A DNA stretch of 64,000 bases from Gordius albopunctatus (GCA_964276515.1 OZ193909.1:7874001-7938000); one strand, 5' to 3'. Shown: positions 17,590-58,432, counted from the first letter of the stretch. Notes: a model not told the origin generated them from the letters alone. Program-made: numbers and translations.

Positions 17590-17859
17590 TTAGTAAGCAC
17601 TTTTAAATGGTAGGGAGGGAGCTTGCTGGGGTAAAGATGAAAAAGTGAGATAGGCAAAGTTATAAATCCCGCCTATTTTCCCATTATGATTTATTAGCCA
17701 CCCTCCTCATTCTCCTCCCCTTCTCAATATTTCATCCATACCTCCATAATAAAAAATATCCACAAGTCAGCACACTGGCGCCAGCTAATTTTATTTCGGC
17801 ATCAAAATCATTTAGGCCAAATATCTTTTCATTTCCAAATCATTTTTTCCTCATTTTTA

Positions 17860-23387: not shown

Positions 23388-25299
23388 TTTTATTAATTGC
23401 TATGCAATTTATGGGCTCGTTTTTGGTTGTCCGTCCGTCCGTCCGTCCACCAAGTTATTTACACCAGCTTCCCGACCTGGAGGTTGCGGGTTCGAGACCC
23501 GGAGAGGACAAAATTTTTTTTTTTTTTTTTAAATTAAATTAATATTTTTTTCTTGTTAATACCATTGATAATATGACTTTTTGACCGTCCGCAGGCTACT
23601 GACCAATGAAAAAATGACCACTGGCCAGATAAATCGAAATTTTTAATTTTTCGTTTTTGAATAGTTTAACATTGATAATTACCCTATGCCCTCCCCTACA
23701 AGGGCCTATGGCTCTATTTATATGGTTCCCTGTTCCCCTCCAAAGGCTTATGCCTCTATTTAATGTGGGTTTGAATCCCGGCGAACGTTCTAAATTGATG
23801 GTTCGAGACCCGGAGAGGACAAAAATTTTTATTTTTTTTTAAATTAAATTAATATATTGTTCTTGTTAATACCATTGATAATATGAATTTTTTACCGTCC
23901 GCAGGCTACTGACCAATGAAAAAATGACCACTTGCCAGATAAATCGAAATTTTTAATTTTTTGTTTTTGAATAGTTTAACATTGATAATTACCCTATGCC
24001 CTCCCCTACAAGGGCCTATGGCTCTATTTATATGGTTCCCTGTTCCCCTCCAAAGGCTTATGCCTCTATTTAATGTGGGTTCGAATCCCGGAGAGGGCAA
24101 AATTTTTATTTTTTTAATTAATTTAATATTTTGTTCTTGTTAATACCATTGATAATATGACTTTTTGACCGTCCGCTGGCTACTGACCAATGAAAAAATG
24201 AACATTGGCCAAATAAATCCTAATTTTTCGTTTTTCCTTTTTGAATAAGTTAACATTGATAATTGAAAAAAATTACCATTGGCCAAATAAATCAAAATTT
24301 TTTGTTCGTTTTTGAATAGGTTAACATTGATAATTACCCTATACTTTTTAATAATTGCTATGCAATTTATCTAGTTTTTGGGTTAGAATCCCGGAGTTTT
24401 TTTTGACTCTTATGATTGTTCTTGTTACTATCAATGATAATAAGACTTTTTGGCCGTCCGCTGGCTGCTGACCAATGAAAAAAATGACCATTGGCCAAAA
24501 TATGTATCCGAGTTTATTTTTTCGTTTTTTTTGAATATTATGATTGTTCCTGTTCCTACCATTGCTATTATGACTTTTTGGCCGTCCGCTGGCTGCTGAC
24601 CAATGGAATAAAATGACCATTGGCCAAAATGTGATTCGAAAATTTTTTTTTCGTTTATTTTTGACTGTTATGAATTTATATCCACTTTTACCGTGTCCTG
24701 GCTGCTGACCAATGGAAAAAATGACCATTGGCCAAAATGTGAATCGAAATTATTTTTTCCGTTTTTTTTGACTATTATGATTGTTCCTGTTCCTACCATT
24801 GCTATTATGACTTTTTGGCCGTCCGCTGGCTGCTGACCAATGGAATAAAATAACCATTGGCCAAAATGTGATTCGAAAACTTTTTTTTCGTTTTTTTTGA
24901 CTATTATGAATTTATATCCACTTTTACCGTGTCCTGGCTGCTGACCAATGGAAAAAAATGACCTTTGGCCAAAATGTGATTCGAAAATTTTTTTTTCGTT
25001 TTTTTTGACTATTATGATTTTTCCTGTTCCTACCATTGCTATTATGACTTTTTGGTAATACAACTCCCGTAGAATTTAACTAACCATAAAGCTTCCCCTT
25101 CGCTCCCTCTCTCCCCCTTTATGATATTTGGCATATACACTTATTTAGTGCTTCCAACCTTCGTTTTGCAATATTCACGTAAGTATTTCCATAAATTGCA
25201 TAGCAAATATGATACATTTATACGGAGTGTAGATGAGTTCCCCCTTCCTTCCCCTCCTCCCCTTCCCCCTTCCCACGAGGGCCGAAGGCCCGAGTTTTT
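23388..25299 (+). mobile_element. Helentron-associated / DINE-1-like non-autonomous element (HINE)
   Basis: T-rich 5' end; subTIR TTGCTATGCAATTTATGG (23397-23414) with perfect inverted copy CCATAAATTGCATAGCAA (25189-25206); (GTCC)5 microsatellite; central ~120-bp tandem repeats; 3' hairpin GGGCC-GAA-GGCCC followed by a T-run. Confidence 0.8.
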
Positions 25300-25722: not shown

Positions 25723-26443
25723 TAGAGCCCTGCAAAATGAAATTTCTTCGCCCCGAGCCCGACTTCTCAAATTTTATTTTGCCCGAGCCCGACCCGATTT
25801 TTTTATTTTTGGCCCGAGCCCGACGCAAAATTGTTGAGAAATATATTTTTATTTCACCATCTTAATATAAAATGCATTAGATTGTTATTACAGGCATGGG
25901 CGTAGCCAGGTTTTGAATTAGGGGGGGGGGCAGAGTAAAAAAAATTTCCTTACCAAAAATTTTCGGCGAGCAAAAAAAAATTTTTTTTTTGAAATTAGGG
26001 GGGGTGGCTACGCCCATGATTACACGTATTTACAACTAGGATAAGTTTGAGATAAAAAAATTTTCACTCGTTATAATTTATTCGGTTAATCATTTAAAGC
26101 TAAAAATTTAACTTTATAATATATATTTTTAAAAGTTCAAAAAAAACCTTTTGAAATATTTACTTATCTTATTTCTAAAGCTGTAACAGCTACTATAAAT
26201 CTATTTAAATACTAGAATAAGATTTGCAATTCAGGTCAGTTATGTTATAATAGACAAGGGAAAAGGCTAAAGTTTGGAAGCTATATAATGTACGCTGTGC
26301 GAAAAAAAAATTATTTAATATCGAAATTTATTTAAATCCTATTTTATAAGAGATTAATTTGTTTTAGTTCAATTCGGGTCGGGCTCGGACCGATTATATT
26401 ATAAAATTTTGGCCTGGCTTCGGGCGGCCCGTGCAGGGCTCTA
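25723..26443 (+). mobile_element. hAT-type MITE containing a nested smaller MITE (25895-26018)
   Basis: TIR TAGAGCCCTGCA / TGCAGGGCTCTA, perfect TSD ATTGTACA; nested CATGGGCGTAGCCA..TGGCTACGCCCATG with TSD ATTACAGG/ATTACACG. Confidence 0.92.
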
Positions 26444-26586: not shown

Positions 26587-26948
26587 CATTCCTATCATTA
26601 AAAACAACTTTCTAAGGGCTTGTCTTAATATGGGATTTTGATGCGCAGCAAAAATCGTCGTACGGGTTATAACATAGCCGTGTTTAACTTCGAATTCACA
26701 GCAGATTTACATTTCAGACGCATAACATAACAACGATTTTGTAAGATGCAAAATTTTTCGTAAGCTTAAATGTTGTATGCTTTTAGATTTTCAGGTGTCA
26801 GCAAAGTTTGGATTTAATCTCAAAAGTTGAAATAAACAAAAAAACATTTTTAACTATCAAAAAATAAAATAGACCTATGAAATTGAATAGGATATTTAGA
26901 CAAAGATAAATTCGCGCGATCTTAATCGGAATCCGATGTTGTTCGGAC

Positions 26949-27682
26949 TAGTGATGATCAAAACCTAGGTTTTGATCAGGCAACCTGAGGGTTAAGGTTC
27001 GGGTGTTCAAAAACCTTTTACCAGGTTTTTGAACACCCGAACCTTAACCTGAGGTTGATCCCGAAAATCAACCTGAAAAACCTTCAGGTCAATTTTATCC
27101 CCAACCTGAAACCCAGGTTGACCTCAGGTTAACCTGATAAAAATCTCTTGTTTTATGCGATAAATTTAAGAATAAATTTTTATTTTACTTTAACTATTTT
27201 CCTTTTTCAAGATGCGTCAAACTTTTTAAATATTTACAATTTTAAATGAATTTATCAAAATTTATAAACATATAGATGGCGTTATCGAGTAATATACATG
27301 TTTAACAATTAATTAAATTTTTATATAAAATCTTATTTTTTTTTATAATAATAACCAAAAACTATTTTTTCTTCATTTAAAATTGTAAATATTTAAAAAG
27401 TTTGACGCATCTTGAAAAAGGAAAATAGTTAAAGTAAAATAAAAATTTATTCTTAAATTTATCGCATAAAACAAGAGATTTTTATCAGGTTAACCTGAGG
27501 TCAACCTGGGTTTCAGGTTGGGGATAAAATTGACCTGAAGGTTTTTCAGGTTGATTTTCGGGATCAACCTCAGGTTAAGTTTCGGGTGTTCAAAAACCTG
27601 GTAAGGTTTTCGAACACCCGAACCTAAAACCGACCTGAGGTTGGACCTCGGGAAAACCTGACCTAGGTTTTGATCATCACTA
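26949..27682. mobile_element. Fold-back (long-TIR) MITE with 8-bp TSD
   Basis: Ends TAGTGATGATCAAAACCTAGG / CCTAGGTTTTGATCATCACTA; perfect TSD GTTCGGAC; ~300-bp inverted arms (26949-~27250 vs ~27372-27682) around a ~120-bp spacer. Confidence 0.93.
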
Positions 27683-30653
27683 GTTCGGACATATAATGTA
27701 CTATATAAATTATATGCTGAAAGTTTTTTGCATGAGCATATTTTTCTAATAATTTAAGGACAATGTCCATATAAACTCCTTTTGCTGGAAAATGACACTT
27801 GCTGAAATTCGTCCAGCAATTATTGAAGCTTATGGCATGCTCATTTAAATAAAACGACATGATGTGAGAATAATTTTAAAAGTGTTGACTTAGTTGAGAA
27901 AGAAGCACACTCAAGCAGAGTTGTGAAATTGGTCGCCGCTGAGCACCCCTCAGGCCCTCACTATCTTCTTTGCCCGAGCACGCACACTGAGCTGTTTAAT
28001 ATGCTCGTTAGCACAATGAGTTCTCGCTGTTCGCTCCACTAGGCAAAACATTAACATAAAAATGCTGGAGAGGCGAGCAGCAAAATTTGTTCAAGCATTG
28101 AGCAGATTGCCCGAGCACTAAACTCGAGCAGATTTAATTGCTATTTGCTACAATTTAGTAAAACTTTAAATATTTGCTCATATTATATATCATCATAAAT
28201 GAATTATGACAAAATAGCTGAGTCAATACAGATAGAAATTGAAACACCCACTCTTCCTACCATGAAGGGCTTAAACATTACAGCGATTTGTTCTAAATAT
28301 GCATACGATCAAAAAGGTTTTATTTCTTTTTCTTTCCTCAGTTCAAAAAACACCAAACTATTCCTAGGTCAAATGCAAGGGTGGCGAAAACTTATACAAA
28401 GTAAGGGAAGGACGAAGGAGTAAGTTGCTAAGAGGGAAAGAACGATTCCATTCAAAAGTTAAGATTGATCACTCTTTTTATATCCCACTAATGAATCCGA
28501 GGAAAATCTCGATCTTGTCTCGCCTAAGGCAGTACTTATATATGCCAATGTTAACTAAGGTTCCCAGCTAGTTCAAATATGTAAATGACATGTTTATAAA
28601 TGTTTATTTGTAAAATAATAATTCGTAATATTAATTTTTGTTATAAATTTTTTTGTACAATAATTCGAATTGGGGGAAAAATTTAGATAGTATTAATTTT
28701 TAAGTCAAAAATCTCATGGAGATTTTTCTAGATCGAGAGGCGATTCTCATAATGGCACTTGAGACGAGATCGAACGAAACACTATCTCCCACTAATGTGG
28801 GCGAAAGTGTAGAGGTGCAAAAGTAAGAAAAACCCTGTTACAAAGCATTTATACTATAAAAACTATATGTCCCAAAATAGCTGACTAGAAAATTTATTTT
28901 TTGTTTATATGGCTACATCATTTATTGTTTATAGGTTGGGTCCGGGCCTTTTTAGAAGGTTGGCCCGCCCGTACCCGTTTTAAAAACTTCAAGGCCCGTC
29001 CGTAATTTTTTTGGGCCCGTCCGAGCCCGTTCGTAAATTTTTCAGGCCCGTTCGTACCCGTTTATAAAAATGTCAGGCCCGCTTTTTAATTACGACCCTT
29101 TCGCTACAGCAGAAGGGCGTAAAACTACAAAGTATTCTGCCCTTTTGGCATCCAATATTTTTATCCCTGTCGTTGCCTCGTGCTCCGGTTCCTTTGGCAA
29201 ACAGGCAATGCGGTTTTTTAAAGAAATCTGAAAATGCACCCCAAAATCTAAAATTTCTGCGTCCTTCTTACTCAGGCAACAACTAAGGATTCTTGTTGCA
29301 CGATAAAACTTTAAATCCTTTGCCGACTCATGGCCCATTTTAGAAGATAATGATATAGATTTTTGTATTTAACCAATATGTCTTTATTTATTTTTGTATT
29401 TCGCTTATTTATGTAACTTTGTTTCGTGAAAATAAACTTTTTAACCACAAAAAAAATTTAAAGTAGAGGAGACCGCGTAATTATTTTTTAAAATAATAAT
29501 GATATATAATTAAAATTTAAACCATATGTGTATTTTTTCATAAGGTATTAGTATAAAAATTTTTGTTAATAAAAAATAAAATTTTAATTTTTATAGAGGG
29601 AAAACGATTTTTCGGGGCTATTAGTAGCCTTGATAAAATTTTGTATTTAAGTTCTGTCTTATAAAGAAATATTTTTTACATAAAAACCATCTAATGATTA
29701 AAATTTTATTTGCAATATAACATGGTAAATTATTAATTTTTTATAAAAAGATGGCTCGGGGCTAGTCGGAGAGGGGCTAGTCCTATACATTTTTCATTGT
29801 CTAGACAAATGTCAAGATTTAAAAAAATAACTTTGTTTAATAATAATTTATCTTAGTGTAATTTGGAATATTAATAGGGTATTTAAACATTTTTTCCATT
29901 GCAGAATTTGTATATCGGGGGGTACCTAAATCAGATTATCATCTTGACCCTTTTTTATTGTATTTTATAAAATATAACCATATTACATTTGCATTCTCTA
30001 TGTTTTTTTATAGTAAAACAATCTTTTTATTGATTTGAGTTAGCATACACCAATAGGAAGTGAAATAGTAAGGAATAATCAATCCCTCGAAAGGGGCTAT
30101 GACTTGCCCCGGGCATTTTTTAAATTTTCAGGATTTTTTTTTAAAATTTAATTTGTGAGAAAATCATTAATTTTTTCAATCCGAATTTTTTTCCTATAGT
30201 GAAAATAGACCTTAAAATTATGTTCCAACAAAAAAATTGAAAAAATAATTTTTAGTTTTTTTAAAACGCGATTCAATTTTTTATGGCTATTTTAGTTCCC
30301 GCCTCCACCCCCTGCCCCATCAAAAATTCCACAAAATTTTATTTTATTTGTTGACATATTCATACAAAAACATCAATAATTATCAGGTAAAAATAAGAAA
30401 TCATCAATTATTTTGGCATATAATACACCTAAAAAATTTCAATAAAATACTACCATTAAATAACTTTACATGAGAATATTCCACTTTCAACAAATTACTT
30501 TTATTTGATTAATTCGATTAATTTAAGTTAATAAACCTAAGAAGTTAAAATTCAGTATTACCATTAAATTAAAATACTTTAATAAAAATACATGAGAATA
30601 TTCAACTTTCAATAAGCAGCTTACATTAATTTGATTAATTTATATAACTAAAT

Positions 30654-33423
30654 TAGAGGTGTGCACGGATCAATCCGATCCGATCCGTATGAACTCGGAT
30701 CGGATCAACATTTTAATTTTGGAAGTCGGATAGGATCGGATCAACATTTTATTTTAGTCGGATCGGATTTTCAAATTTAAAATAAAAATAATAAGTTCTA
30801 ATTAATTAAATTAATAATTTTTAGTATACCTTTTCATAATTATCTTTGCATTCTTTTTTTACTATACCATTTTTGATGCCCAATACCACCTCTCACCTTA
30901 CTTACTCCAACATATTTACCAGTATTTCCCTAGCGTTTTTCCCTAGCTAGACTTTCTTGTTTGGCGAGAAAGGAGCTAGTGTCAATGATAAATCAGCATC
31001 TCCCGTTTCCTTTTTAGAATCTTTTTCTATCTCAACTCAACTCATCTCCGAAAATCATCAATCACTATCTCCCCTTTTCTTAAAGCACGCGCGTAGCTCC
31101 TTTCTATTGTTTATCATATTAAAAACCGTTATGGAAGAAATAATAAAAAAATTTAAAAGAAATATGCTTCAACAAGTTAAAAAACTCGGGCCTTCGGCCC
31201 TCGTGGTAAGGGGAAGGGGGCAATGGGAGTAGGGGAAGGGAAGGGGGAACTCTTCTATACTCTGTATAAAAGTAGCATATTTGCTATGCAATTTATTGGC
31301 GAGAAAGGTGGGAAGGGGCGAGAATCTCTATAGGGGGGTATTAAATGCAAAGGTTATTTTGCATTAATATAGTGAATTAATATCATTTCTCAAATCTATA
31401 ATGCAAAATATAATATTAATCAAATGTAACGTTTAAATGCATATATCGCTCGCACCCAGCAAATAAGCTTGGTTTGGCGCAAATATTACTTGTATATTTA
31501 TTAAACCCTAATCATGCTTTCAAGCATGTAATGGCTGCAACCCCCTCGACAGATAATTTAACAAATATAAATTATTATGACAAAAATGGGGGGCCGCAAA
31601 AAAATTATAAAATATTTGGGGGGGGCGCGTGTATAAAAAGGTTAAGAACCACTGATTTAAAACACTTCAGCAATAGGCGTTTTTTGATCACCAAATATTC
31701 AAGAATTTGGTTCCGTATTTTATAATGATTTTGGGATAAGCATTTTGAAATTTGAGCCTTTACTTAAAAACAATATGGCCTCATTTTTTTATTGGTCAGT
31801 ATCAAGAGACGGTCTATAAATACATACGAGTTTAAAAAAACGACAAAGAAATTTCGATCACAATTTGGCCAATGGTCATTTTTTTCATTGGTAAGTAGCC
31901 AGCGGAAGGTCAAAAAGTCATCGTATCAATGGTATTAAGAAGAACAATAAATATTAAAATTTAATTTACAAAAAGTCATATTATCAATGGTATTAACAAG
32001 AACAAAATATTAATTTAATTTAAAAAAATAGAGGCATAGGCCCTTGTAGGGGAGGGCATAGGGTAATTATCAATGTTAACCTATTCAAAAACGAAAAATA
32101 AAAAATTTGGATTTATTTGGCCAATGGTCATTTTTTCATTGGTCAGTAGCCTGCGGACGGTCAAAAAGTTATATTATCCATGGTATTAACAAGAACATAA
32201 TATTAATTTAATTTTAAAAAAAAATAAAAAATTTTTGTCCTCTCCGGGTCTCCATCGCCAACCTGCAAGTCAGTAAGCTGTTCGCTATAACCACTCATAC
32301 CATGCTGGTATTAAAATTGTAGAAATTTTTATGTTATTTATATAGATAATGAAATAATAAAGTTGTGTTTTATGTTTATTATATAATAAAATGAAACAAT
32401 AATAGAAAATCAATATATTACAGATAATTTAACAAAAATTGAGGGATTCAGTTTGTGCAGCATAATACTTCTCTAAATCTTAAACGAATTTTGGGTGAAC
32501 CGCACATTTTTGGTCTAAAAACATTTTGGTGACCCAAGCAATTGTAGTAGATGCTTCGTAATCTTTCAAATCCTTAAAATCTTGATGCATCTCTGAGGGG
32601 GGGGGGAATGTCGACGTTTCAGATCATTTAGCCAATGGTCATTTTTTTCCATTGGTCAGTACGCAGAGATGGTCTATAAATACATACGAGTCAAAAAAAA
32701 AACAAAAAAATTTCGATTCACATTTTGGCCAATGGTCATTTTTTTCCATTGGTCAGTACCAACAGATACTCTATAAGTCAATGATAGCCAAAAAAAACGG
32801 AAAAAAAAATTTTGATGCTCACTTTGGCCAATGGTCATTTTTTCTATTGGTCAGCAGCCAGCGGACGGCCAAAAAGTCATATTATCAATGGCATTAACAG
32901 GAACAATCATAAGAGTAAAAAAAAAGGAAAAAAAAATTCGATTCACAATTTGGCCAATGGTCATTTTTACCATCGGTCAGGAGCCAGCGGACGGCCAAAA
33001 AGTCATATTATCAATAGTATTAACAAGAACAAAATATTAATTTAATTTAAAAAAAAATAAAAATTTTTGTCCTCTCCGGGTTTTGAACCATCAATTTAGA
33101 ACGTTCGCCGGGATTCAAACCCACATTAAATAGAGGCATAAGCCTTTGGAGGGGAACAGGGAACCATATAAATAGAGCCATAGGCCCTGTAGGGGAGGGC
33201 ATAGGGTAATTATCAATGTTAAACTATTCAAAAACGAAAAATTAAAAATTTCGATTTATTCGGCCAGTGGTCATTTTTTCATTGGTCAGTAGCCTGCCAA
33301 ATTTAGATTTTAAAAAACTCGGATCGGATTTAGATTTTAAGATACTCGGATCGGATGGATATAAAATTTTTCAAAAACCCTCGGATCGGATCGGATAAAA
33401 AAATTGATCCGTGCACACCTCTA
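30654..33423 (+). mobile_element. hAT-type element carrying an inverted HINE copy
   Basis: TIR TAGAGGTGTGCACGGATCAAT / ATTGATCCGTGCACACCTCTA, perfect TSD AACTAAAT. Confidence 0.92.
31180..33297 (-). mobile_element. Second HINE copy (reverse orientation, 5'-truncated or rearranged)
   Basis: Reverse 3' end AAAAACTCGGGCCTTCGGCCCTCGTGG..TTGCTATGCAATTTAT at 31180-31296; central repeats 31790-33297 are near-identical to the reverse complement of parts of 23500-24900. Confidence 0.8.
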
Positions 33424-35667
33424 AACTAAATACACCTAAGTTTTAGATTATAACAAAAATATTTATTAAGTTATATTTACCTATTAATAATTATACCAAT
33501 AAAACTTATGATAAAAACACAAAACATTTGGTGCATTATATTTTTTTAGTCGTGAATGTAATTTTTTGTATACCATTTAATAAAGGATATAATTTAAATT
33601 GTAACTAAGTAATTGAACTTACTTATAAAAGAATATACGCAGCTATAATCTTAATTTATGTGGTGGCATTAAGCCAATTTTTTAATAATTTTATTACTTC
33701 ACCCTAAAATTACCCTTGGATTAATTTTATTACTTCACCCATAAAATTTGGATTTTATGATCTCGTTTGGCTGTTCAAGGCCACGCGTTTATTAATAGAT
33801 TGTAGAATCACGTTGATTGTTTATTTCGTTGTTAATTTCGCTATTTGTTAGTTTATTGTTATCTTCGCTATTTATCATTATTGTTACCACTTCGCTGTTT
33901 ATTATTATTTGTGCGTTATCGTTATTTACGCCTAATCTGATTACCTCATCCATCATTATTATTCTTACTTTAAAAAGAAGTGTTAGTGTAAATTTGGATA
34001 GATAATAAATTTTGAAGTTGAACAAATTTATGCGAAAGATGTAGTAGTACGAAAAATAAAACTAATATATTCGCGGTAGTTCTAGAAAATAAATAGATTT
34101 AGCTAGAAATTAAATAAATATTTTAAAGCGTATTTTTATAAATACGAAATTATGTAAACGAAAATCAAATAAAAATGTTTTAAAGTGAAATTTAGCGCTT
34201 GAAAAAGGAAAATTAGGGATTAAAAAAATAGAGCAATTAATAATCTTTATATTTAATATAAATCCTCTATTTATATAATTTGACTTTTAAGGACCTTTGT
34301 AATTCCATGGCCATTTATATAATCAATGGCCCGTTCAAGCGCGTTAAAAAAATCTCAGGCCCGTCCGGGCCCGTTGAAATTTTTATAATAAAAAGCCCGT
34401 CCGTACCCATCCGCGGGCCGGGCCTGCTCGTGCAGATCTCTAGTATAGAGGTCGCGAACTTAATTTGTAGAACTCTAATGCCCATGCATCCCTGTCCTTA
34501 TTTGATGCGAGCTTACCTTATGCCGCTTTATTAAAAATGTAGTACATAGGGTAAAATATATACATACATTTATAAAAATTATTATTAAAATTTTAATAAA
34601 CGTCCTGACTGGTGTAGCATGATAGAGGCCAGCCGCCTTAAAATTTAGTTTTTATATATAAAAATGAAAAAACAATTCGTTTGGGTAAGACATTCGCCCC
34701 CCCCCTCAAAAATAAACTTTAATAAAATCAGACTCAAATCGATTAAGTTTAAATTATTCTTTTGTATATAATATTTGAAATTTTAATAACTTTTAATGGT
34801 GAAAAATTATTTAATTTAGGTGGGACACACCTTTTGTGGTAGTTAATTTTAGTTTAATGGACGAATAAGGATTTATTGCTTAATTAAAAACAATATCTCA
34901 CATGGGCGTAGCCGGGGGGTGGCGGCCTAAACGACGAAAAATTTAATTTTTCAATGAAAAAACCCTTGAAAATTTTTAGCTTTCGCTCCCCCCCCCTTAA
35001 TTCAAAACCTGGCTACGCCCATGTCTCACTAATAACACGATCACCATTCTACTTTTTGATATAGAAAAGCGAGTGTAAGTAAGGTAAGCACACGAAGCTT
35101 ACAACATTTTTAATTTAAAAAACCAATTCCTATATTTGAAAGTAAACTTCCAAATTCAATGCTTTAGGTCAGAATTTGATTTATTCTATATATATATATA
35201 CATACGACAAACACAAAATATATTGGATGTAAATAGGGTAGTAAGAATCAGCATAATATTCCTCTAATAAAGCTTGGCCTAGAAAGTAAAATATGCTCTA
35301 ATATTAACTTTTCTTATCTCTCTGGTTACAAAAAAGGATGAAGGTTTTTGGTCATTCGGTGAGCAAAAAAGTCCGAAGAAATTTTACCGGCATCCTTCGA
35401 TATATACATGCATAACAATAAATACAATTAGCGTTGGATCTGGGTCTCGGTTTGGCCAGCACACCAAAAACAATCAGTCGCTTTACAGCAAAGAGGCAGC
35501 ATTAAATTCTTAGTCGATATATTATTTTAAAATTATCGAACGATTTTGGGGGGTTACAATAAATTAAAAATAAACGCGTATACACATCGATAAAGTGTAG
35601 GGAGTATAAAAATATAATCATAGTGGGAAAAAATAAAAAATATTAGGGGGTGGGGAGCAAAAGATTC

Positions 35668-38600
35668 TCAGGTTCTGGCACATTTTTCGGCTTCTAACAA
35701 GCATTCTCGCACCAGGATACGGGAATGGATGATGCCCCGTTTGAGACGTTCGGCCGCGACCTTACTTCCCGCGTAAGCTGGCCTTATATCCCGACCCATA
35801 TCTTCGATAACGGCCAACAATTGGGCATACTTGCTCTGTTGAGGCACGGCGGAGTGCAACAAATTTTGGTGCTGCTGCTGCTGATTATTACTATGCTGTG
35901 GTGTCCCAGTTGACGAGGGCGTGATGGAGGATTTGTTGGTCGCTTGATTTATGCTGTTGACCGTGGCCGGCGTTGACTTGCTTCCACCGCTCGCGACTTC
36001 ACTTTTAACCGTTATCGCCGGCGTGGTCGCGGTATGAGATTTGGCTTTAGCACTACCTTCTGGATGAGTTGAAGGTTTAAATGCAATAAATCATACTATT
36101 TAAACTTTATTAATGTGTTGACCAAAAGCTCATCAAATATGATAGTTATGTATAAAGATGATGTTTGGCTCGATAGACTAATGAATCCCTACTAATGAAT
36201 GTGTTTTGCAATAATGTTAAAATGTCTATTAACGGGACAACATAATGTATTATTAATGCAAAAACGTAAATACTCTTGGTATGGAGAATATGAGGTGCAA
36301 CGATTATGATGATGAGTGTGGATGCATTACACAATTTCTCAAATTTTAAAATCTCACCCAATCAAAATCGCAACAGCTCAATAATGATATTAAACAAAAT
36401 AAGCTAGCTTAGCCGGATATTGCCATTTTGAAACATACCATCATCGAGCTTAGGTATTTTGCTAGGGACCGTTTCGGTGTCCAAATCGAGTTCCCGCTTC
36501 AGATTCGGCATAGGTTCGGAATTAAGTTTTTTATCGTCGTTGTTAGATTCCATAAAGTTGACACGATCTAACACGTTTCAATTACATAATAAACGAGTAA
36601 AATTGTTAAAAATTCATTATTAATATCATGAAACAGTAGCGTATTCAAGGGGAAAGGGTTTGGGTTAGACACCCCCGCCCACCCCCTTCCTCAATGGTAA
36701 AAAATGAAAAAATAAGTGGAAAATAGGGTCCTACTAAATAAATTAAACCCAACCGGCTAATTAAATTAGAAATGGTTACAATTGGAGATCTGCAACGGCC
36801 CATTCTTCATAGAAGGTCGGCCCATCCGTACCCCTTTATTTTCTATAAAAATCTATGTGGTTATTTAAAAGTTTATCCCACGTATAAATAATAATTTACT
36901 TCTTACCTAAATAAAAGTCACTACTATCCCCGCAACAGGCAGAGTCGAACGGGGGACTGCTCTCTATCGGGAGGTGGTCTTCACGCCCGTCTTTGATGAC
37001 CACTATTTCGGGATTTTTAATGGGCAAGGGGTGATTGTGTTGAGTGTTGGCGCTAGTGATATAGAGCTTTTGGATGGACGTCTTAAAGCTCAGAGACAAG
37101 TAGGCTTTGCAATCGCAAGAAGCACCCCTAATAAAATTTCACATTTCAAACATCTTTATTACATTCTAAAAATAAATTCATTATTTTTCCAAAAATATAT
37201 AGTAATTAGAGTTTAAACCTTAAAAAAGGATGATTTTGATACTCCTTCATATCAGGAAATTTAGCCAAAAAATGACAAATTTCGACAATCATGCCCACCC
37301 TAATTAAAATCATCGACACGCATATTAGCAAAAATTTGACAGTAAATTCATTACTTACTAGAGATTGAAAAAGTGAAGGTAAAAATAACTGTTTATGAAA
37401 ATTTTGTATTATTTATTTGTATTCAAAATGTTTTCGTTTTCAAGGATTAATATCACAACCCATTTCTCCCTGTTAGTGTAACTTTGTACCAGAAAGACGA
37501 TTCAAAAAAGGGTAAAGTAAAGACTAATTTTGGATCTTTAAAATAGGGTTAATTCATAGACTTTATTCAAAATGATGAATCAAATCTTTATTTCATTTAC
37601 CGATTGTGACGACAAACCTAAGCTGACTTAGCCATGTGAATAAGCCAAAATGATAAATCGGTTGAAAAACCAGATATGAACCAAGAGTTGCAATAAAATA
37701 CAATATCTGGCTGGGTGCGTGCTATGCGACAGGCGTTGGATGATTAAACAGCAATGAAATAGGAAAAGTTATTGAAAATTATCATCACAGGATAAAGTTT
37801 AACACGTTGTAATCCCGCCTTAAATAATCTGGTTCTGGGTCATGATTCGTCGCAAACGTTTTTGTAAAATATAAATTTAAACTTTTCTCATCAAAAAAAG
37901 GGAGAAAAATTTAGGGTTTAAACATAAAACGACACAACGATCATTTAAAGAAGCTTTAGGTCAAAAAGGGTGGCTCTGGGCAGGTGGTCAAATAGTCGGA
38001 TTGCTTACATTAATTGAATTACTCCTCCTTAAGTTCATTATTTAGCAGCCACCTAGGAAAAAAGGGGTTTTAAATATTGGGGTAAATTTGTTGACTTATA
38101 TATTTTAAAGATAATGTTAATAATATAAAGGGGTAAAATATAATGAGTCTTATCATGCATGGACGTAGCCAGCATTGCGATTGGGGGGGGCAATAATGAT
38201 TTAGGAAGGGGCAAATTGATCATTTTTTGAAATGTTAGCCATAATTTTTCATAAATTTCAACAAATTTTTGGATTAAGAGGGGGGCAGCAGCCCCTCCCT
38301 GCTTTCCCCTCCTTGGCTACGTTCATGAGTCTTGATTTGAGTGTTTTAGTTAAACGCTGCACAAAACCCAATATTTATTCATCATAAAGGGGCAAAACTT
38401 TATTTTTCTAGGGGGTTTTCTTATGGGGCACAAGCATGGGCCTAGCCTCTAAATCCTAAAATTCTTTAAAAGCTTTATGGCTAAAATTCCAAAATATATT
38501 CTGTTTGGCCCACCTTAGATTATTATTGCCCTTTCTGATTTCAATCCTGGCTAAGCGCCCATGGGCATGAAATAGCACCAGCTGTAAAAGGAGTGATAAA

Positions 38601-39745
38601 ATACGAATATCAGAGATAAATCACACTTCAATCATATAATAATTAGAATCGATTAGTTTGCACATTCTGATAATATAAAATTACGGTTGCATCATTGAAT
38701 CAACTATTTTAAGGATGTAGTATAGCCACAGATAATACTTTCCCCAATGAACTTTGACGTCGTTCAATTACCTTACCAAATAAAATTTTGAAATATCATG
38801 ACTAATCCTTATGTTGGTAATATCAATTGTGTGACAATGTAATTGTTCGGTGTTTATATTGCCCGCAATATCATATAAAATAAATTTATTGCTTAAAATT
38901 TTATTTATACTATCAACTGTGGGGCGGGGCGGATTGCGCTAATTTGAAAGACATTTCAGGCTAGGGTTGTGTTCAGAGGGCTCAAACTTTAACTAATTTT
39001 GGACAAAAGGTGGTGATGGCTTAAAAGGTTTGTAGTAGACTTTGAATATTAGAAATTTATAAAAACATGAGTAGCCAAAAGGGCCTAAAAGTTTTCACAA
39101 CGGGTACGGAGGGGCCGACCTTCTAAATATGGCCCCCGTTGCAGATCTCTAATAAGGATATTCAAAGCCAAAGCATATAAACATTTTTCCGAATAAAATT
39201 CGATAACGCAATATGCAAAAATCCAATGATCCCAAAGATTTGAAGCCAAATTTAATGTGTATAGCCTTTTATCAATACTGGCCCATAATTTAAAAATAAA
39301 ATAGTTATTAAAAAAACTGAAGAGGGGGTGGGGTAGATGGGTATGGGGAAGGGGTGGGGCGGGAGGAGTGGAGTTACTTGACTTTGTTGGTTCCGTGTCG
39401 GACGCATATATAAGTGACGCCGGCGTATTTAAACCTCTCCGGTATCATATTTTTCGGAGTCCTTTTCTTATTTTCGGCCCCGACGCCAACGCTACTCTTC
39501 ACCCGAAACACGGCCCCCGTTTGGCGCTGGAAGGCGGCGAATGCCGACTCGAAAGCGCCAAAATCTTCGAATGTTTGCGTCGTAGGGGCATCGCCGAAAG
39601 CTGCCGCGAAGATGCGCCTCGTATCGTAGTATATAACGGGTAATGATGATATGTTATGATGTAGGGGGGAGGGCGGGGTGGCCTTATTACTCGATGGCGA
39701 TTCATTTTGGTAACGGGAATGGGGCAGGGGGCGAATGGCGGCCAT
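35668..39745 (-). CDS. CDK2AP1: CDK2-associated protein 1 (DOC-1) homolog with a predicted N-terminal ZSWIM3-N/FAR1-like zinc DNA-binding domain; 4 exons, 369 aa
   Basis: Exons 39378-39745 (368 nt), 36907-37127 (221), 36439-36567 (129), 35668-36059 (392): all GT-AG, phases 2/1/1 consistent, total 1110 nt with no internal stop. C-terminus [55 protein letters not shown] is the CDK2AP domain. Confidence 0.85.
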
Positions 39746-40439
39746 ATTGAATTGTAAGGGAGGTCAAACGATTAAGGGTGAAAGAGAGTAAGGGGTTTTA
39801 AGATTTATTTTTTGAATTCTCTCGTCCAACTAATGCCGATGCCAGCAGTTTGGTTGAATTCGAAACCAAAATTAAGATACGTACACTTTGTGAGGGAAGA
39901 AAGGAAGGGGTGGTGAGTTGGGTAGAGAATGGTCCTAACTTACACTGGGAAAAAGAAGTGGTAATTCGCCATTTTTGCAGAATGTTGGAAGAAGGGCGTA
40001 GGAGGAGGTAGAAAGGCGGCGCGCCTGCCTTATTTTCATCCCAGTGCGCGATTTATATTGCGTACATCCAAAAAATTACGCTAGACATTGGCTACCCGCC
40101 CTTTACCCCCCCCCCCTCCTCCCCGTAGCGGAGAGATAGCTAGCTACTACTCTATTATCCCCACCCGTACGATACTATACAATACATGATGTATCTTCAT
40201 ATTTTTGGCTAGCCCTACCCACCCTACTCCACTCAACTACTTACTGGCGGCACTCTCATTTGCGAGTGAGCAAGCAGTCCCCCTCCCCCCTCCTGGTTTC
40301 ATCGCACACTGCTGACTTCGCTCGCGCATTAACAGCAACCGGGGCCATGCCAACAAATATGGAGGAAGGCAAGCGGGGTGGGGGGGAGGAACGAGGGAAG
40401 GCGATTGCCAAGAATAAATTAGGAGGGGAGAGAGCATTT

Positions 40440-40976
40440 TTTTCAACCCGAACCCGACCCGAAAGCCCTAAAATTTTCCACCCAAACCCGGCCCGACCAA
40501 TTTCGGTAAAATAGTGGTGTGTAAAATTTAATAGACAACCTAAAGTGCGATTTATAAAATAAAAATGAACTAAAACTTCACGGTATTTGAATACAATTAA
40601 AAAATATTAAGTGTTATATATGCGAAAGAGGGGGAGCCCTAAACTGACATGGAAGCATAAAATTGATATGGACTTGAGAAGGTACTAGCTAAAATATTAC
40701 CAATAATGTACCTGATAGCTTTGCAAATGAACCATTTATGAATTTAAACTTACTTTTATGTTGGTTTATAACTTAAATCTATTTAAATACAATTAAAAAA
40801 TAATGTACCGGGTATTTTGCAATGTAAGATTCAAAACGTTTGACCCAACTCTTTAAATCCAACTAACCCGACTCGAAAGCATTTTAAAATTGTCAACCAA
40901 AACCCAGAGATATTTCAAAATTTTTAACCCAAACCCGATGTCGGGTCCAGTATCGAATCACCCTTGCAAGTCTCTA
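40440..40976. mobile_element. hAT-type MITE remnant (AACCCGAACCCGACCCG family)
   Basis: Right end TTGCAAGTCTCTA matches the left end TAGAGGCTTGCAA seen at 21661; shared CCCGA subrepeats. Confidence 0.6.
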
Positions 40977-41632
40977 ATATAGGACAACAACTAAAATGGT
41001 TTTTGGGATGAAATATATAGACAACGGGAGACGACAGGCTTAACTGCTAAGACTTAGTTGTAAGAGAGGGGGGGGGGAGGGTGGCATCAAGCACGAACCA
41101 CACATTATGTATAGCTCAAGTGTTGTACGACAATTCGGTTGATTAGAGGCAACCCATTTCCCAAATAACAATCGCAAGTGAAATGTGACCACGAATTTCA
41201 AAAATTAACGAAATACAAATGTATGAGCAGTATTAGCATTATAGGGCCATCAGTCCATATGGGTATCCCATAAATAAGCGACTTTATTATAATATACTTT
41301 CTAATTATAAAATCTTTGACCCTAGTAGAGATACCTCCTCAAGAATCTATTTCTCGGCAAAGGGTTTAGCCTATTATTATTTTCTATTTCGGAATTCGCT
41401 CGATAGCTTACGAAAATAAACTTAATTGAGCCTAATTTTTGTATCAAGAATGCTGCAAGATAGGTTTTCACCGGTCCGAGTCGGGCCCTGCAATTTAATC
41501 AACTGATTTTTTGTTAAATATTAATCGAACTTAATACTATAATTTCGTAATTAACAGTTTATAATGACAAAATATGCTCTTTAAAGAATATAATATTTTC
41601 GGAGTTCTTCCAATACCTATAATAATATATAT

Positions 41633-43832: not shown

Positions 43833-44537
43833 CTGCAATTTCATTTAAATTGAGTATTAATTAATTGTATTTTATTTTATTATTGTACTCTCGTCTGGTA
43901 GTATATCCGCAATCTCTATAAACAAGAAACTAATGTATAAATACCCGTGTTAAATACTTAGAAAAATAAAATTATTAATTAACTTTATTAAAATTTGGCT
44001 TGTATTAGCATCTTCCTCGTTTATTTTAGAGGTTGAGATAGTTTTGTAAAGAAATATTAAGAATTTAACTTCTTTCTATTAGAAAACATGCATTCGGGAC
44101 AGAAAATTTTTGTATAGATATAGATAGTAGAATTAGTAGAGATTTCATCCAAAATTATATATCAAATTAATTAAGATTATTAATTATTTTTTATATGCCT
44201 ACCTACACTAACAAGGTTCTTATTAATATCATTGAATTTTTCCGTATAATTTAAAAAAAATTAAATTTTTCTGTCCCAGGCCTTCCCTATGCTACCGTTG
44301 GGACTAAATAAATAATGTCATTTTTTTAAACAAAATTTACTATTTTCATGCAAAATTATTGTTTTAAGAATAGATTTTTTTCATATTCTCAGTTAAAAGT
44401 TTTTTCTACATTGCATGCTTAAGTCGACGCATCACTTGTTGAAAATAACTCGAAATACATTATAAAAAATGTCATAATGAGTTGCCAAAATTCTTGTTTA
44501 TAGATATTAAAATTTGAGGGGGGGGCATATATATTTG

Positions 44538-46072
44538 GGCCATTCCATGTCGATTCGTCAAAAAAAGATGATTTTCGACCGACCATCTCAGATCAGGATA
44601 ATTTTTGGTGAGGGTGTAGGGCTCATTTATTAGATTAATTTCTGAAAGTTTTAGCCATTTTGGGCCAATACTTTTTAAGTTATGGACGTTTAAAGGGCCA
44701 AAATAACGTTCGGGACCGTTTTATGGATTTCTCTATTTTTGAAAGTAATGGCGCTATTCAATCAAATTTTGGTGCATTTTGTTCCTAAAAAAATTCTCTA
44801 TCGAAATAATTTAACCAAAAACCTCAAACTTTTGCGGTTAATTTTTTGTGGTAAAATTAGTGAAAAATCATAAAACATATTTCTCAGGTATATGAAATCA
44901 CCAATTTCACAATGTGCACTTCTTTATGACCCATTATCATATTTCAATCATAAAAAGTTTGGGAGCGGCTACGAGATGGTAAAAAATTCGAAAAATATCA
45001 TTTCCAACAAAAATATTTATAGATGGCGGTATAACCAATTATCACAAGAACATATTATGGTATTTGTTTTTTATCAAATTGCAAATTTGTAAAAAATATA
45101 TTGTAAATAAAAAATATTGGATTAAAAATCAACTTAAATTTTGAACTTTATCTACGCGATGGGCAAGTAATCGAGTTTGAAAATAACTTTAGGTTTAAAA
45201 TAAAAAATGGTCAAAACTAGCGAGAAATTTTTTTAAAAATACCTTTCATCCTGCATAAATTTTTTAATTGCTATGCAATTTTATTTTTAGCATGAATTAT
45301 CAGTACAAAAATAAAAATATACGAGCAATTTTGCCATCATATTAGTATTTATTTATTTTTCAACCTCATATTAATTTTAGCATACCCCTGTATCATTTAA
45401 GCTAAAATTCTAGATCTAATTTTCAAACTCGGATAATTGTTAATTGCGCAGAAAAAAATATCAAATTTAAGTTTATTTTTATTCCAATGTTATTCATTTA
45501 CCATATATTCTTTATCAAATTTGCAATTTGATAAAAAACAAACACCATAATATGTTCTTGTGATAAAAATTGGTTATACCGCCATCTATAAATATTTTTG
45601 TTGGAAATGCTATTTTTCGAATTTTTGACCATCTCGTAGCCGCTCCCAAACTTTTTATGATTGAAATATGATAATGGGTCATAAAGGAGTTCACATTGTG
45701 AAATTGGTGATTTCGTATACAGGAGAAATATGTTTTTATGATTTTTCACTAATTTTACCACAAAAAATTAACCGCAAAAGATTGAGGTTTTTGGTTAAAT
45801 TATTTCGATAGAGAATTTTTTAGGAACAAAATGCACCAAAATTTGAGAGAATAACGCAATTACTTTCAAAAATATGAAGAAAATAGTGAAATCCATAAAA
45901 CGCTCCCGAACGTGATTTTGGCCCTTTAAACGTCCATAACTTAAAAAGTATTGGCCCAAAATGGCTAAAACTTTCAGAAATTAATCTAATAAATGACACC
46001 TACACCCTCACCAAAAAATATCCTGATATGAAATGGTCGATCGAAAACGTTTCGATTTGTCATGGAATGGCC
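44538..46072. mobile_element. Long-TIR (fold-back) non-autonomous DNA transposon
   Basis: Ends GGCCATTCCATG / CATGGAATGGCC; ~600-bp high-identity inverted arms (the mirrored ORFs 44892+ and 45498- reflect this); ATAT near both ends; superfamily uncertain. Confidence 0.85.
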
Positions 46073-47399
46073 GCCCATATATCTTTGAAAGAGACGGCAT
46101 CGATTGCATAGCAATTTTAAAAAAATGAGAAATCTTTTTTGCAATTTTGAATGTACGCTGCTGGAACTTAAAAAGCCATATTAAGTACACTATTCTAACG
46201 TTCAATTTATTTAAAATTAGCCAGGTAAATTAAAATAAGATTTTTTATGATATTAGAGATAAATAATAAGTGTCCTAGATATTTTATTAGCTTCGGGTCA
46301 AATTAAAATTACTAAACCAAGATTAAGAAACATTTTTTGCCTCGTTACGGCTTTAAATGTTGTAAATGTAGACACTTTTAGACTCCACAAACAAAAACTC
46401 TAAACTTGCAAAATTGCCGCAAATGGATAATGAAATTTATTGAATTTTATATAAAATATAAAAATAATAAAAATTTAGTAATAAACAACGTCCATACTCA
46501 TATACACCGTTATTAATTCATTAAAGGGTACTTCAAGTAAAATCTTTAATAAAAATTTGAGCTATGTCCACTTATGGTAAAAGAAGGTGAAACATTATAT
46601 ATGTTGTTTTTGTGTCATATATATAATTTACTACTAAAATAACTTGAGGGGGGTGGTTAATGTTTTTGATTACATTTTTATTAAAAATAAAGTTACTTTT
46701 TATCTAAGCCCAATATTGCTTGCTTATAATTTTACCAAACCCAACCCTATCCTAAATTTCTTTTGATCAAGCTTTATGGTAAATTTGAAATTTAGATTTA
46801 AACAAGGATAATGATAAGTAATTAATGTTTTTACAATGTAATAATCTCAAAAAAAATTAAAATGCAATATTCTAATTATACTATTTAATGGTTAAAAATA
46901 AATAATCATTTTAAAATATTAAATAATGTTTAAATTTTTTATTTGCTATATCTATAAATGTATAATTGAAAATATATATAACAAATTCTAACAAGATAGG
47001 ATAATAGACAGGATGGAGAACTGGGGTCTAAAATGCTTCTTAAATACCACAAATAAGCTCTAAAATCCGTAAATATTGTTGGGTTAATTTTTGGAAATTA
47101 ATTAATAGTTATTTACTGGTTAGGCATTACTTCAGGTTGGGCTTGGGAATAATGTCCTACGCGATAAACTTTAATAAAAGGCTTAAACCTTCATTAATAA
47201 AAATCACATGTTAAAATATTACACATTAATATTATGCTGCAAAATACAAAGCTATGGACAGATGATATAAAATTATAAATTGCAACTCCTAATAAATTAG
47301 AGATCATGGCAAAAATTGATGCATATTGCATATTAACCCCGTTCTAAAAATGAAGTTTGCCAAGGGAAGGTTAATTAAGTTGGCATGTATTAGTTCTAA

Positions 47400-49754: not shown

Positions 49755-50034
49755 CAGGCGCGTAGCCAGGATTTTCTCAAGGGGGAAGAAAAATGCAAAA
49801 AAATTTTCGACACTTTTATTTATAATGTAACAAAAGTAAACTTCGCTTACAATATATGCGAAACTTCAAGGCGCGCTATATAACCAGCTTTGGAAAAATC
49901 TTCTCTCTTCATTAATCAGAGCATTTACTATCGATTTTATACCTTATAAAAGGACATGGTCCTTCAAAAAAAATTAAAATTTTGGTCAAGGGGGCAGAAA
50001 ATTCACGCTTTCTGCCCCCTTGGCTACGCGCCTG
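49755..50034 (+). mobile_element. hAT-type MITE (copy of 16426-16703)
   Basis: TIR CAGGCGCGTAGCCA / TGGCTACGCGCCTG; TSD CTCCCCAC / CCCCCCAC. Confidence 0.9.
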
Positions 50035-57662: not shown

Positions 57663-58432
57663 TTCGTGGCTTTTTCCTTATATCTTTGGTGATACCAACA
57701 CCAATCCTGGGGAACGTCTGCGTTGGGTTGAAACGGGGATCGAAATCGCCTTGATGTAGACCTACTTCTCGACCGAAAACGATTTTTTTGACTGACCTCT
57801 TGCCGTAATGTCTCAATGCTCACGCTCAGTCTATTGACCATGTCTCTGAGCGTCTCAATATCGTTGCGGGATCTCTGTGTGGCAGGGATGACGTTGGATA
57901 TTTGCGGCGTATGGTACGTTTCCGCGATTTTATCAGCTGTTTCAGCTAGCTTGACTAACGTCTGGTCACTTGCACAGATCGCCAAGATGCTGGCCATGTT
58001 GTTGTCCAGTTTTTCCAACCACAGCTGTTTTAAAATGATGTCGTCCATTTTGGCGGTACCCAGGAGGCTTTTCATGTGTCTATAGAGTTGTGAGGGTGTA
58101 CGATCGGCCAATTCCACGTTGAACAGTAGGTCGTGGAATCGTGCTGAGTCCGATTTTTTTGTGCGGTCGATGATAGCTGACCGGATGGTAGTGTACGGGG
58201 CCTCAGCCGGTAGATTCTCCAAGTAATCTTGGATCTCTATTGTGACTTCTTGTGGGAGGCATTCAATCACGTATCCAAGTTTGCTAGACTCAGATGTTAT
58301 TCGTCGAATCGTGAAAAGGGCCTCTATCTGGACAAACCATAAGCGGGGATTTATACGATTGAAGGGGGGCAATTTGAAAAACATAGCGTTTTCCGATTTA
58401 ATTTGGACGTCATAAACTTGGTTGGTATCCAT
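57614..58432 (-). CDS. Gypsy gag
   Basis: KLPPF..PRLWFVQIEALF, LADRTPSQLYRHM, CWYH..AxKCxxPC knuckle; intact 272-aa ORF. Confidence 0.92.
   Translation of the reverse strand: MDTNQVYDVQIKSENAMFFKLPPFNRINPRLWFVQIEALFTIRRITSESSKLGYVIECLPQEVTIEIQDYLENLPAEAPYTTIRSAIIDRTKKSDSARFHDLLFNVELADRTPSQLYRHMKSLLGTAKMDDIILKQLWLEKLDNNMASILAICASDQTLVKLAETADKIAETYHTPQISNVIPATQRSRNDIETLRDMVNRLSVSIETLRQEVSQKNRFRSRSRSTSRRFRSPFQPNADVPQDWCWYHQRYKEKATKCRQPCNYIPISSSNL

What the first reader, a model, noticed from the sequence alone, without database searches (positions are those of the whole stretch)
35668..39745. Chimeric gene: transposase-type zinc DNA-binding domain (ZSWIM3-N/FAR1-like) spliced in frame to the NuRD subunit CDK2AP1
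Seen in sequence: four GT-AG exons join without stops (AA|G, G|AT, G|AA junctions; 1110 nt, 369 aa). Exons 1-2 give [70 protein letters not shown], with a C..C..HxH ligand set. Known: this matches my recollection of the ZSWIM3 N-terminal domain (F.TYEDF..F.AY....F..........Y..V.F.C.R..CPAYL.L.....L.I...NTQH), a WRKY/GCM1/FAR1-fold domain found at the N-terminus of Mutator (MULE) transposases. CDK2AP1 proteins I know are small, lack a DNA-binding domain, and are NuRD subunits. Inference: a domesticated transposon DNA-binding module captured by CDK2AP1 could tether NuRD to specific DNA, perhaps to silence the abundant MITEs, analogous to KRAB-transposase fusions. The linker is low-complexity and has two psi-K-x-E SUMO consensus sites (LKRE, VKSE).
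Basis: partly seen in the sequence, partly recalled or inferred. Interest (0 to 1): 0.9.

Follow-up and report, generated by a model that had tools for sequence, protein, structure and literature searches.

The report
DNA-binding NuRD subunit in horsehair worms
This gene, probably from a horsehair worm, is predicted to splice a transposon-type zinc DNA-binding domain onto CDK2AP1, a small core part of the NuRD chromatin-remodelling machine, and likely lets that machine be steered to chosen DNA sites by one of its own subunits.

Summary
Four GT-AG exons join into 369 codons without a stop. Exons 1-2 carry consecutive halves of ZSWIM3_N; exon 4 carries CDK2AP.

The same architecture is annotated in the horsehair worm Gordionus montsenyensis by both RefSeq and the submitters' set (P0061). 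Both domains are conserved (56/79, 30/39 and 52/55 identical) across a barely alignable linker, and inferred intron phases match.

The fusion looks rare: 1 of 60 long CDK2AP homologues and 0 of 56 other ZSWIM3_N homologues have it. Three literature searches found no description.

Not shown: any RNA junction in this organism, DNA binding, or CHD4 binding. The exon 1/2 join may lack a micro-exon. The SUMO sites are not conserved. The commonest MITE looks hAT-type rather than Mutator, which weakens the MITE-silencing idea. The immediate donor, a transposase or an already domesticated gene, is unresolved.

Best reading: a lineage-specific NuRD-targeting factor, probably with a short plain CDK2AP1 isoform beside it.

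The parts
39378..39745 (-). Exon 1 (coding part): 37-aa extension, then the first two thirds of the ZSWIM3_N zinc domain
   Evidence: Pfam ZSWIM3_N 4-68, E 3e-8; 56/79 identical to Gordionus P0061; ATG with A at -3 and G at +4. Two possible donors: after 39378 (phase 2) or after 39383 (phase 0).
39251..40500 (-). GC-rich stretch over and upstream of exon 1; likely promoter and 5' region (inferred)
   Evidence: GC 0.44-0.53 against about 0.32 for the window; no such non-coding stretch before exon 3.
38158..38327 (.). High-copy MITE in intron 1; not part of the protein
   Evidence: Terminal inverted repeats; summed depth over 1000-fold that of its neighbours.
37483..37523 (-). Candidate 41-nt micro-exon, unproven
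   Evidence: Best of 85 frame-keeping candidates, but not above chance: 27 of 150 shuffles and 10 of 52 real stretches score as well; weak donor.
36907..37127 (-). Exon 2: last Cys, strands and HxH of the zinc domain, then start of the linker
   Evidence: Pfam ZSWIM3_N 75-102, E 8e-4; 30/39 identical to P0061 in the domain part, 9/35 after it. Read-through of the donor stops at 36896.
36439..36567 (-). Exon 3: linker, with an in-frame Met at residue 202 that would start a 168-aa plain CDK2AP1
   Evidence: Gordionus has a Met at the matching place, where its annotated 192-aa form P0062 starts.
35668..36059 (-). Exon 4: low-complexity linker and the C-terminal CDK2AP helical hairpin (residues 315-369)
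   Evidence: Pfam CDK2AP E 1e-17; 52/55 identical to P0061; matches 2KW6 and 2M1L, E about 4e-21 and 5e-21; two long helices predicted.

Best explanation
The locus likely encodes one spliced protein in which a WRKY/GCM1-fold zinc domain, predicted to bind DNA, is tethered through a disordered linker to the CDK2AP1 helical hairpin, which would dock on CHD4/Mi-2 and so bring NuRD to that domain's sites. Shown: the open four-exon frame, both domain matches, and conservation of both domains in a Gordionus orthologue. Inferred: splicing in this species, the horsehair-worm origin of the window, and origin by splicing of an upstream two-exon zinc-domain gene into the exon that holds the old CDK2AP1 start. 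Taken from human work: the hairpin binds CHD4 as a monomer through the surface it uses to homodimerise, so the fusion would switch between a free DNA-binding dimer and a NuRD-bound monomer. A short isoform from the exon-3 Met would supply untargeted NuRD. The targets are unknown; host genes seem more likely than the hAT-type MITEs.
For: Frame and domains. Orthologue P0061 = XP_065317982.1 = CAK9300274.1, with ZSWIM3_N E 2.5e-17 and CDK2AP E 4.7e-20; the two annotation sets give the identical sequence. The submitters' pipeline used RNA-seq and protein evidence (passages). RefSeq isoform X2 (P0001) also joins the exon-2 part to CDK2AP. Identity is 56/79, 30/39 and 52/55 in the domains against 9/35, 12/43 and 15/59 in the linker. 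Three Gordionus copies of the exon-2 part begin and end at the same residues, and their flanking residues fit a phase-2 start and a phase-1 end, as in the window (inference). Window and Gordionus domains form a clade, 99/96. The zinc domain is basic (18 K/R, 8 D/E) and folds with high confidence. Its best structural match is the DNA-bound yeast factor Aft2 (Foldseek probability 0.96, E 0.07; Z 6.7, rmsd 2.6, 75 aligned). The hairpin is 39/56 identical to the CDK2AP1 chain 2KW6 (counted by eye). CHD4 binding mode: 10.64898/2026.06.03.728223 (passages). One GC-rich promoter-like stretch, at exon 1.
Against: No junction read was seen in either species; the Gordionus models are predictions whose read support I could not view. 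Only two species show the fusion. Fold matches are below firm thresholds (E > 0.001; Z < 8, tied with unrelated helical hits to the other domain). The human N-terminal CDK2AP1 segment needed for maximal CHD4 binding was not tested; the Pfam match covers only positions 136-207 of 209. 2 of 60 CDK2AP homologues are joined to an unrelated WD40 protein (P0056, P0060), so merged gene models of CDK2AP may occur. An AATAAA lies at 36840, just after the exon-2 read-through stop, although the hexamer occurs 2.8 times per kb.
Confidence: 0.6

Rival explanations
1. Two neighbouring genes, a small solo zinc-domain gene ending at 36896 and an ordinary CDK2AP1 starting in exon 3, are merged by gene predictors or only rarely spliced together.
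For: Exon 2 read-through stops after a few codons with an AATAAA about 55 nt downstream. A domain-less 192-aa form is annotated in Gordionus, and both species have a Met early in exon 3. Other CDK2AP records are joined to unrelated neighbours (2 of 60).
Against: Two annotation sets give the identical fused protein and a second RefSeq isoform keeps the junction. The junction phase is inferred to be the same in two species whose exon-2 parts differ in length (73 against 62 aa) and whose linkers barely align. No promoter-like stretch precedes exon 3. AATAAA is common here.
Confidence: 0.12
2. The fusion is real but works mainly outside NuRD, as a homodimeric transcription factor that uses the CDK2AP hairpin only to dimerise; or the zinc domain binds protein rather than DNA.
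For: Human CDK2AP1 is a stable homodimer, and dimerisation and CHD4 binding use the same surface. Retention of the N-terminal CHD4 contact is untested. The helical extension that follows the domain in many homologues is absent.
Against: The hairpin is 52/55 identical between the two species and about 78-80% identical to the next-best homologues, which fits a kept partner surface. The domain's solved look-alikes bind DNA.
Confidence: 0.18
3. One reading: the captured domain still recognises the ends of its parent transposon family and recruits NuRD to silence such elements.
For: Precedent in KRAB-transposase fusions (10.1101/2020.05.07.082677, passages). The window is rich in high-copy inverted-repeat elements, and DNA transposons lead the repeats of Gordionus.
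Against: The commonest MITE family shows 8-bp duplications. The domain is 1.6 or more substitutions per site from every other homologue found, transposases included, so the parent element is probably ancient. No transposase catalytic remnant was found in the window.
Confidence: 0.1

Closest known systems
Gordionus montsenyensis LOC135926167 isoform X1 (XP_065317982.1 / CAK9300274.1)
   Same: Same ZSWIM3_N-linker-CDK2AP order, same clade, inferred same intron phases, Met at the matching place in exon 3.
   Different: Named only 'uncharacterized'; lacks the 37-aa extension; has 13 more residues in the Cys-Cys insert; linker barely alignable.
CDK2AP1/CDK2AP2 (DOC-1; PF09806; PDB 2KW6, 2M1L), core of the NuRD remodelling module
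   Same: C-terminal helical hairpin, 39/56 identical to 2KW6.
   Different: None of the other 59 long homologues scanned carries a ZSWIM3_N or FAR1 match; here an N-terminal zinc domain is added.
Host-transposase fusion transcription factors (KRABINER and other KRAB-transposase fusions; Cosby et al., 10.1101/2020.05.07.082677)
   Same: Transposase-type DNA-binding domain on its own exons, spliced to a chromatin-regulatory host domain; a parental short form may coexist.
   Different: The host part is a structural subunit of the repressor complex, not a recruiting tag. The domain is Mutator-type and N-terminal. The cognate transposon is not identified. That survey covered tetrapods, and its main text has no hit for NuRD, Mutator or MULE.
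Solo WRKY-GCM1 factors derived from MULE transposases (Aft2/Rcs1, Rbf1, FAR1/FHY3; animal ZSWIM3_N proteins)
   Same: Same fold class and Cys2-His2 ligand pattern; Aft2 is the best structural match.
   Different: None of the 56 other homologues has CDK2AP; their partners include BTB (2) and HIUase/transthyretin (2 above cut-off, 1 weak).

Membership tests
ZSWIM3_N (PF21599) | Score above the curated cut-off | tested here: met
   Exon 1 alone 34.6 bits against 27.8; orthologue 63.7 bits over positions 4-102.
ZSWIM3_N (PF21599) | Cys, Cys, His-x-His metal ligand set | tested here: met
   C114, C129, H153, H155; the same set in P0061. Metal binding itself not tested.
WRKY-GCM1 superfamily | Four-stranded core fold with N-terminal helix | tested here: inconclusive
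   Confident model of P0061 with strands 39-47, 65-73, 103-109, 114-121 and helix 22-36. Aft2 and WRKY lead the lists but with E 0.07-0.3 and Z 6.7.
Insert-containing WRKY-GCM1 family (PMC1702500) | Trp in the fourth strand (described there as typical) | tested here: not met
   No Trp in the domain of the window or of P0061. Not filed under this family; it resembles it.
WRKY-GCM1 superfamily | Sequence-specific DNA binding | not testable with these tools
   Only basic charge and fold likeness.
MULE/Mutator transposase | RNase H-like DDE catalytic domain after the DNA-binding domain | tested here: not met
   No Pfam MULE match in the exons or in P0061. tblastn of 10 homologues, 3 with catalytic-type domains, hits only exons 1-2. 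It is not a transposase.
CDK2AP1/2 (PF09806) | Conserved C-terminal helical hairpin above cut-off | tested here: met
   65.5 bits against 26.2; PDB 2KW6 E 3.8e-21; helices 23-44 and 48-77 of the 78-aa piece.
CDK2AP1/2 (PF09806) | Binds the CHD4 C-terminal region within NuRD | not tested
Host-transposase fusion gene | Transposase-type domain on exons distinct from the host domain | tested here: met
   Exons 1-2 against exon 4.
Host-transposase fusion gene | Fusion transcript shown by RNA | tested here: inconclusive
   No RNA holder listed for the window; indirect support from Gordionus annotations.
Host-transposase fusion gene | Direct descent from an identifiable transposon | tested here: inconclusive
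   Backbone of the tree open; the weak sister group (83/82) is a set of non-transposase proteins.

The most novel reading that the evidence does not exclude
In horsehair worms a core NuRD subunit has itself become a sequence-specific DNA-binding factor. One gene yields a targeted long isoform and an untargeted short one, and the dimer-to-monomer switch of the CDK2AP hairpin decides whether the protein sits on DNA as a free dimer or pulls CHD4 onto its sites. NuRD would then have hard-wired targeting without an outside transcription factor.
Probability: 0.35. Interest if true: 0.85.

Novelty: new variant of a known kind. Interest (0 to 1): 0.66.

Why it matters
NuRD is normally steered by separate transcription factors or methyl-CpG readers (my own knowledge). 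A DNA-binding domain on CDK2AP1 would be a natural case of built-in targeting of the remodelling module. It extends transposase-domain capture from recruiting tags such as KRAB in tetrapods to a structural subunit of a repressor complex in a little-studied parasitic phylum. It also offers a direct test of whether CDK2AP1 alone can recruit CHD4 to DNA, and of the proposed dimer/monomer switch. The architecture already sits unnamed in RefSeq, and I found no description of it in the searched library.

Tried and rejected
Whole genome: none held, so gene copy number, other CDK2AP paralogues and MULE families in this organism were not examined.

RNA: no RNA holder listed; this says nothing about expression. 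The two runs laid have contigs that run through the introns, and no splice joint at these junctions was among those shown.

Further orthologues: searches with P0061 1-140 (lengths 193-615), with window exon 1 (lengths 47-151) and by HMMER over 50% representatives found no fusion outside Gordionus. These have length and word limits, and short CDK2AP proteins were not searched.

Micro-exon: the best candidate is not above chance; left open.

SUMO sites: rejected as a conserved feature. MITE as target: weakened; no target-site duplication could be assigned to the two long-arm foldback elements. Transposase remnants near the gene: none found. dN/dS: not possible without Gordionus DNA.

ESM Atlas hits were under the tool's bar (best 0.79); leads only. 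The wide fold search was dominated by helical matches to the hairpin. No complex prediction was run: no CHD4 was at hand and the homodimer would pass by likeness to 2KW6.

Literature: CDK2AP1+ZSWIM3 gave 2 unrelated papers; CDK2AP1+fusion+transposase gave 19 papers, 17 listed, none on this by title or abstract start; CDK2AP1+Nematomorpha 0; host-transposase fusion+Mutator+DNA-binding domain 0; Nematomorpha+trans-splicing 0. PMC12062965 held none of six terms. Earlier scan findings: nothing.

Full report
Observation. All three introns are GT-AG, and the join gives 1110 nt, 369 residues and no internal stop. Scanned separately, exon 1 matches Pfam ZSWIM3_N positions 4-68 above the curated cut-off, exon 2 matches positions 75-102 weakly, exon 3 matches nothing and exon 4 matches CDK2AP. 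DNA contigs of two coded runs from one study cover the gene at even, low depth apart from a repeat in intron 1; one contig spans 34994-38210 without differences, so exons 2-4 are adjacent in that data, which may be the window's own source. No RNA holder was listed.

An orthologue exists. A search with the CDK2AP part among proteins of 138 residues or more returned 60 hits. The best, at 95% identity, was a Gordionus sp. m RMFG-2023 protein; the others were at most 81%. Its cluster has three members. P0061 (351 aa; RefSeq XP_065317982.1 and CAK9300274.1, the same sequence) carries ZSWIM3_N (E 2.5e-17) and CDK2AP (E 4.7e-20). P0001 (isoform X2) starts at the exon-2 part. P0062 (192 aa) has only linker and CDK2AP. 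The genome paper names the species G. montsenyensis and describes BRAKER annotation with RNA-seq and protein evidence (10.1101/2023.06.26.546503; passages). I could not see read support for this gene, and the supplements were not seen. I infer that the window comes from a horsehair worm of another species.

Pattern of conservation. Window against P0061: 56/79 identical in the exon-1 domain part, 30/39 in the exon-2 domain part, 9/35, 12/43 and 15/59 through the linker, 52/55 in the hairpin. Both domains are held while the linker drifts. Three other Gordionus records (P0068, P0071, P0122) share only the exon-2 part and diverge at the same residues on both sides. Their flanking residues fit a phase-2 start and a phase-1 end, the phases in the window; this is an inference from protein, not DNA. 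The exon-2 parts differ in length (73 against 62 aa) yet stay in frame with exon 3. In both species a Met lies 3-5 residues into the exon-3 part, and P0062 starts there. Among the 15 homologues under 130 aa, at least 8 stop or diverge right after a Gln-Arg that lies six residues before the second ligand Cys (read by eye). That is the position of the window's intron 1 acceptor, so the domain probably arrived as an already intron-bearing gene piece.

Corrections to the model. P0061 has 13 more residues at the exon 1/2 join, and its match to exon 1 ends at the alternative donor 39383. A micro-exon may be missing. The best of 85 candidates (37523-37483) would give 26, but 27 of 150 shuffles and 10 of 52 real stretches score as well. 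The phase-2 donor at 39378 fits the homologues' pattern, so the direct join stays possible; the frame holds either way. The two SUMO consensus sites are not conserved.

How common. Of 60 long CDK2AP homologues only the Gordionus one has a ZSWIM3_N or FAR1 match (for proteins with more than five families only the best five were shown). A HMMER search of 1.84 billion representatives with the Gordionus domain gave 57 hits. One is P0001; none of the other 56 has CDK2AP, 3 carry MULE or RNase H-like domains, 2 BTB, and 2 HIUase/transthyretin above cut-off. In a tree of 63 domain rows (six short proteins left out: P0068, P0071, P0075, P0092, P0093, P0114), window and Gordionus form a clade at 99/96, 1.6 or more substitutions per site from the rest. 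The weak sister group (83/82) is of non-transposase proteins, and the backbone is open. No test of one clade was run and the tree has no true root, so no donor is claimed. The domain family is of Mutator-transposase origin (PMC1702500; passages and section 10), but direct capture from a transposon is not shown. No catalytic remnant was found in the window.

Structure. The model of P0061 has a confident N-terminal domain, a disordered linker and a C-terminal hairpin. For the N-terminal domain the best match is Aft2 bound to DNA (Foldseek probability 0.96, E 0.07; Z 6.7, rmsd 2.6, 75 aligned), with WRKY domains below it. These agree with Pfam but are below firm thresholds. The window's hairpin matches CDK2AP1 (2KW6) and CDK2AP2 (2M1L) and folds into two long helices.

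Mechanism. A 2026 preprint reports that the CDK2AP1 hairpin packs on the CHD4 C-terminal hairpin as a monomer, through its homodimer surface, and that an N-terminal segment adds a second contact needed for maximal binding (10.64898/2026.06.03.728223; passages). I infer that the long isoform binds DNA through the zinc domain and recruits or stabilises CHD4-containing NuRD there, alternating with a free dimer, while a short isoform from the exon-3 Met acts as ordinary CDK2AP1. The only GC-rich non-coding stretch near the gene is at exon 1, which fits one promoter for the whole unit. DNA binding, CHD4 binding and the second contact are untested. Confidence: about 0.88 that the fusion is a real transcript, 0.6 for NuRD targeting.

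Against. No junction read was seen, and only two species show the fusion. Exon 2 read-through stops at 36896 with an AATAAA at 36840, though that hexamer occurs 2.8 times per kb. Two of 60 CDK2AP records are joined to a WD40 protein, so merged models may occur. The MITE-silencing idea is weak: 3 of 10 elements examined, all of the commonest family, have a one-mismatch 8-bp duplication at their exact ends. By my own knowledge that is the hAT pattern, whereas Mutator typically gives 9 bp. The copy in intron 1 showed no clear duplication.

Comparison and verdict. It works like a host-transposase fusion factor (10.1101/2020.05.07.082677; passages; supplements not seen) but differs in that the host part is a core subunit of the complex and the parent element is unidentified. 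It is not a transposase. PMC10236294 (passages) added nothing on this domain. Searches found no description of the fusion; the library lacks most subscription journals. Verdict: a real feature and a new variant of a known kind, sitting unnamed in RefSeq; interest 0.66.

Noticed in passing
P0068, P0071, P0122 (Gordionus records): Only the exon-2 part of this gene recurs, about 80% identical, at three other places in the Gordionus assembly (two on 22-kb scaffolds); possibly an exon carried by a mobile element.
   Followed up: partly
P0070, P0089, P0103, P0104, P0112: ZSWIM3_N is also joined to BTB (2 proteins) and to HIUase/transthyretin (2 clear, 1 weak) in other animals; the domain seems to be shuffled repeatedly.
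   Followed up: no
P0056, P0060: CDK2AP joined to a WD40 diphthine methylhydrolase in a nematode and a bug record; merged models or a recurring neighbour.
   Followed up: no
P0052, P0057: CDK2AP proteins of 329-387 aa (one from the wasp Cotesia) with a long repetitive Met/Lys/Glu-rich N-terminal extension.
   Followed up: no
window 25895-26018, 34901-35023, 38158-38327, 49755-50034, 54204-54371: High-copy MITE family with shared terminal inverted repeats; three copies have near-perfect 8-bp duplications.
   Followed up: partly
window 26940-27691 and 44529-46082: Two foldback elements with very long inverted arms (85-89% identical); no target-site duplication assigned.
   Followed up: partly
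window 23465-25055 and 31781-33297: Two related blocks of imperfect tandem repeats in opposite orientation, at very high depth where laid.
   Followed up: no
window 54791-58432 (minus): LTR-retrotransposon-type reading frames with RT, RNase H and integrase, split over several frames.
   Followed up: no
window 60413-62757 and 11381-12032 (minus): Two related LINE-type fragments, 91% alike over 441 nt; an RT match at 60809-61381.
   Followed up: no
window 2776-3084 (-), 17698-18051 (+), 63457-63780 (+): Exon fragments of neighbouring genes: HGSNAT-like (weak), a KH domain and an RRM domain.
   Followed up: no
window 34501-41500: CpG observed/expected is mostly 0.7-1.4 in 300-nt windows, so there is little CpG depletion; this would fit low DNA methylation, which could matter for how NuRD is targeted.
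   Followed up: no
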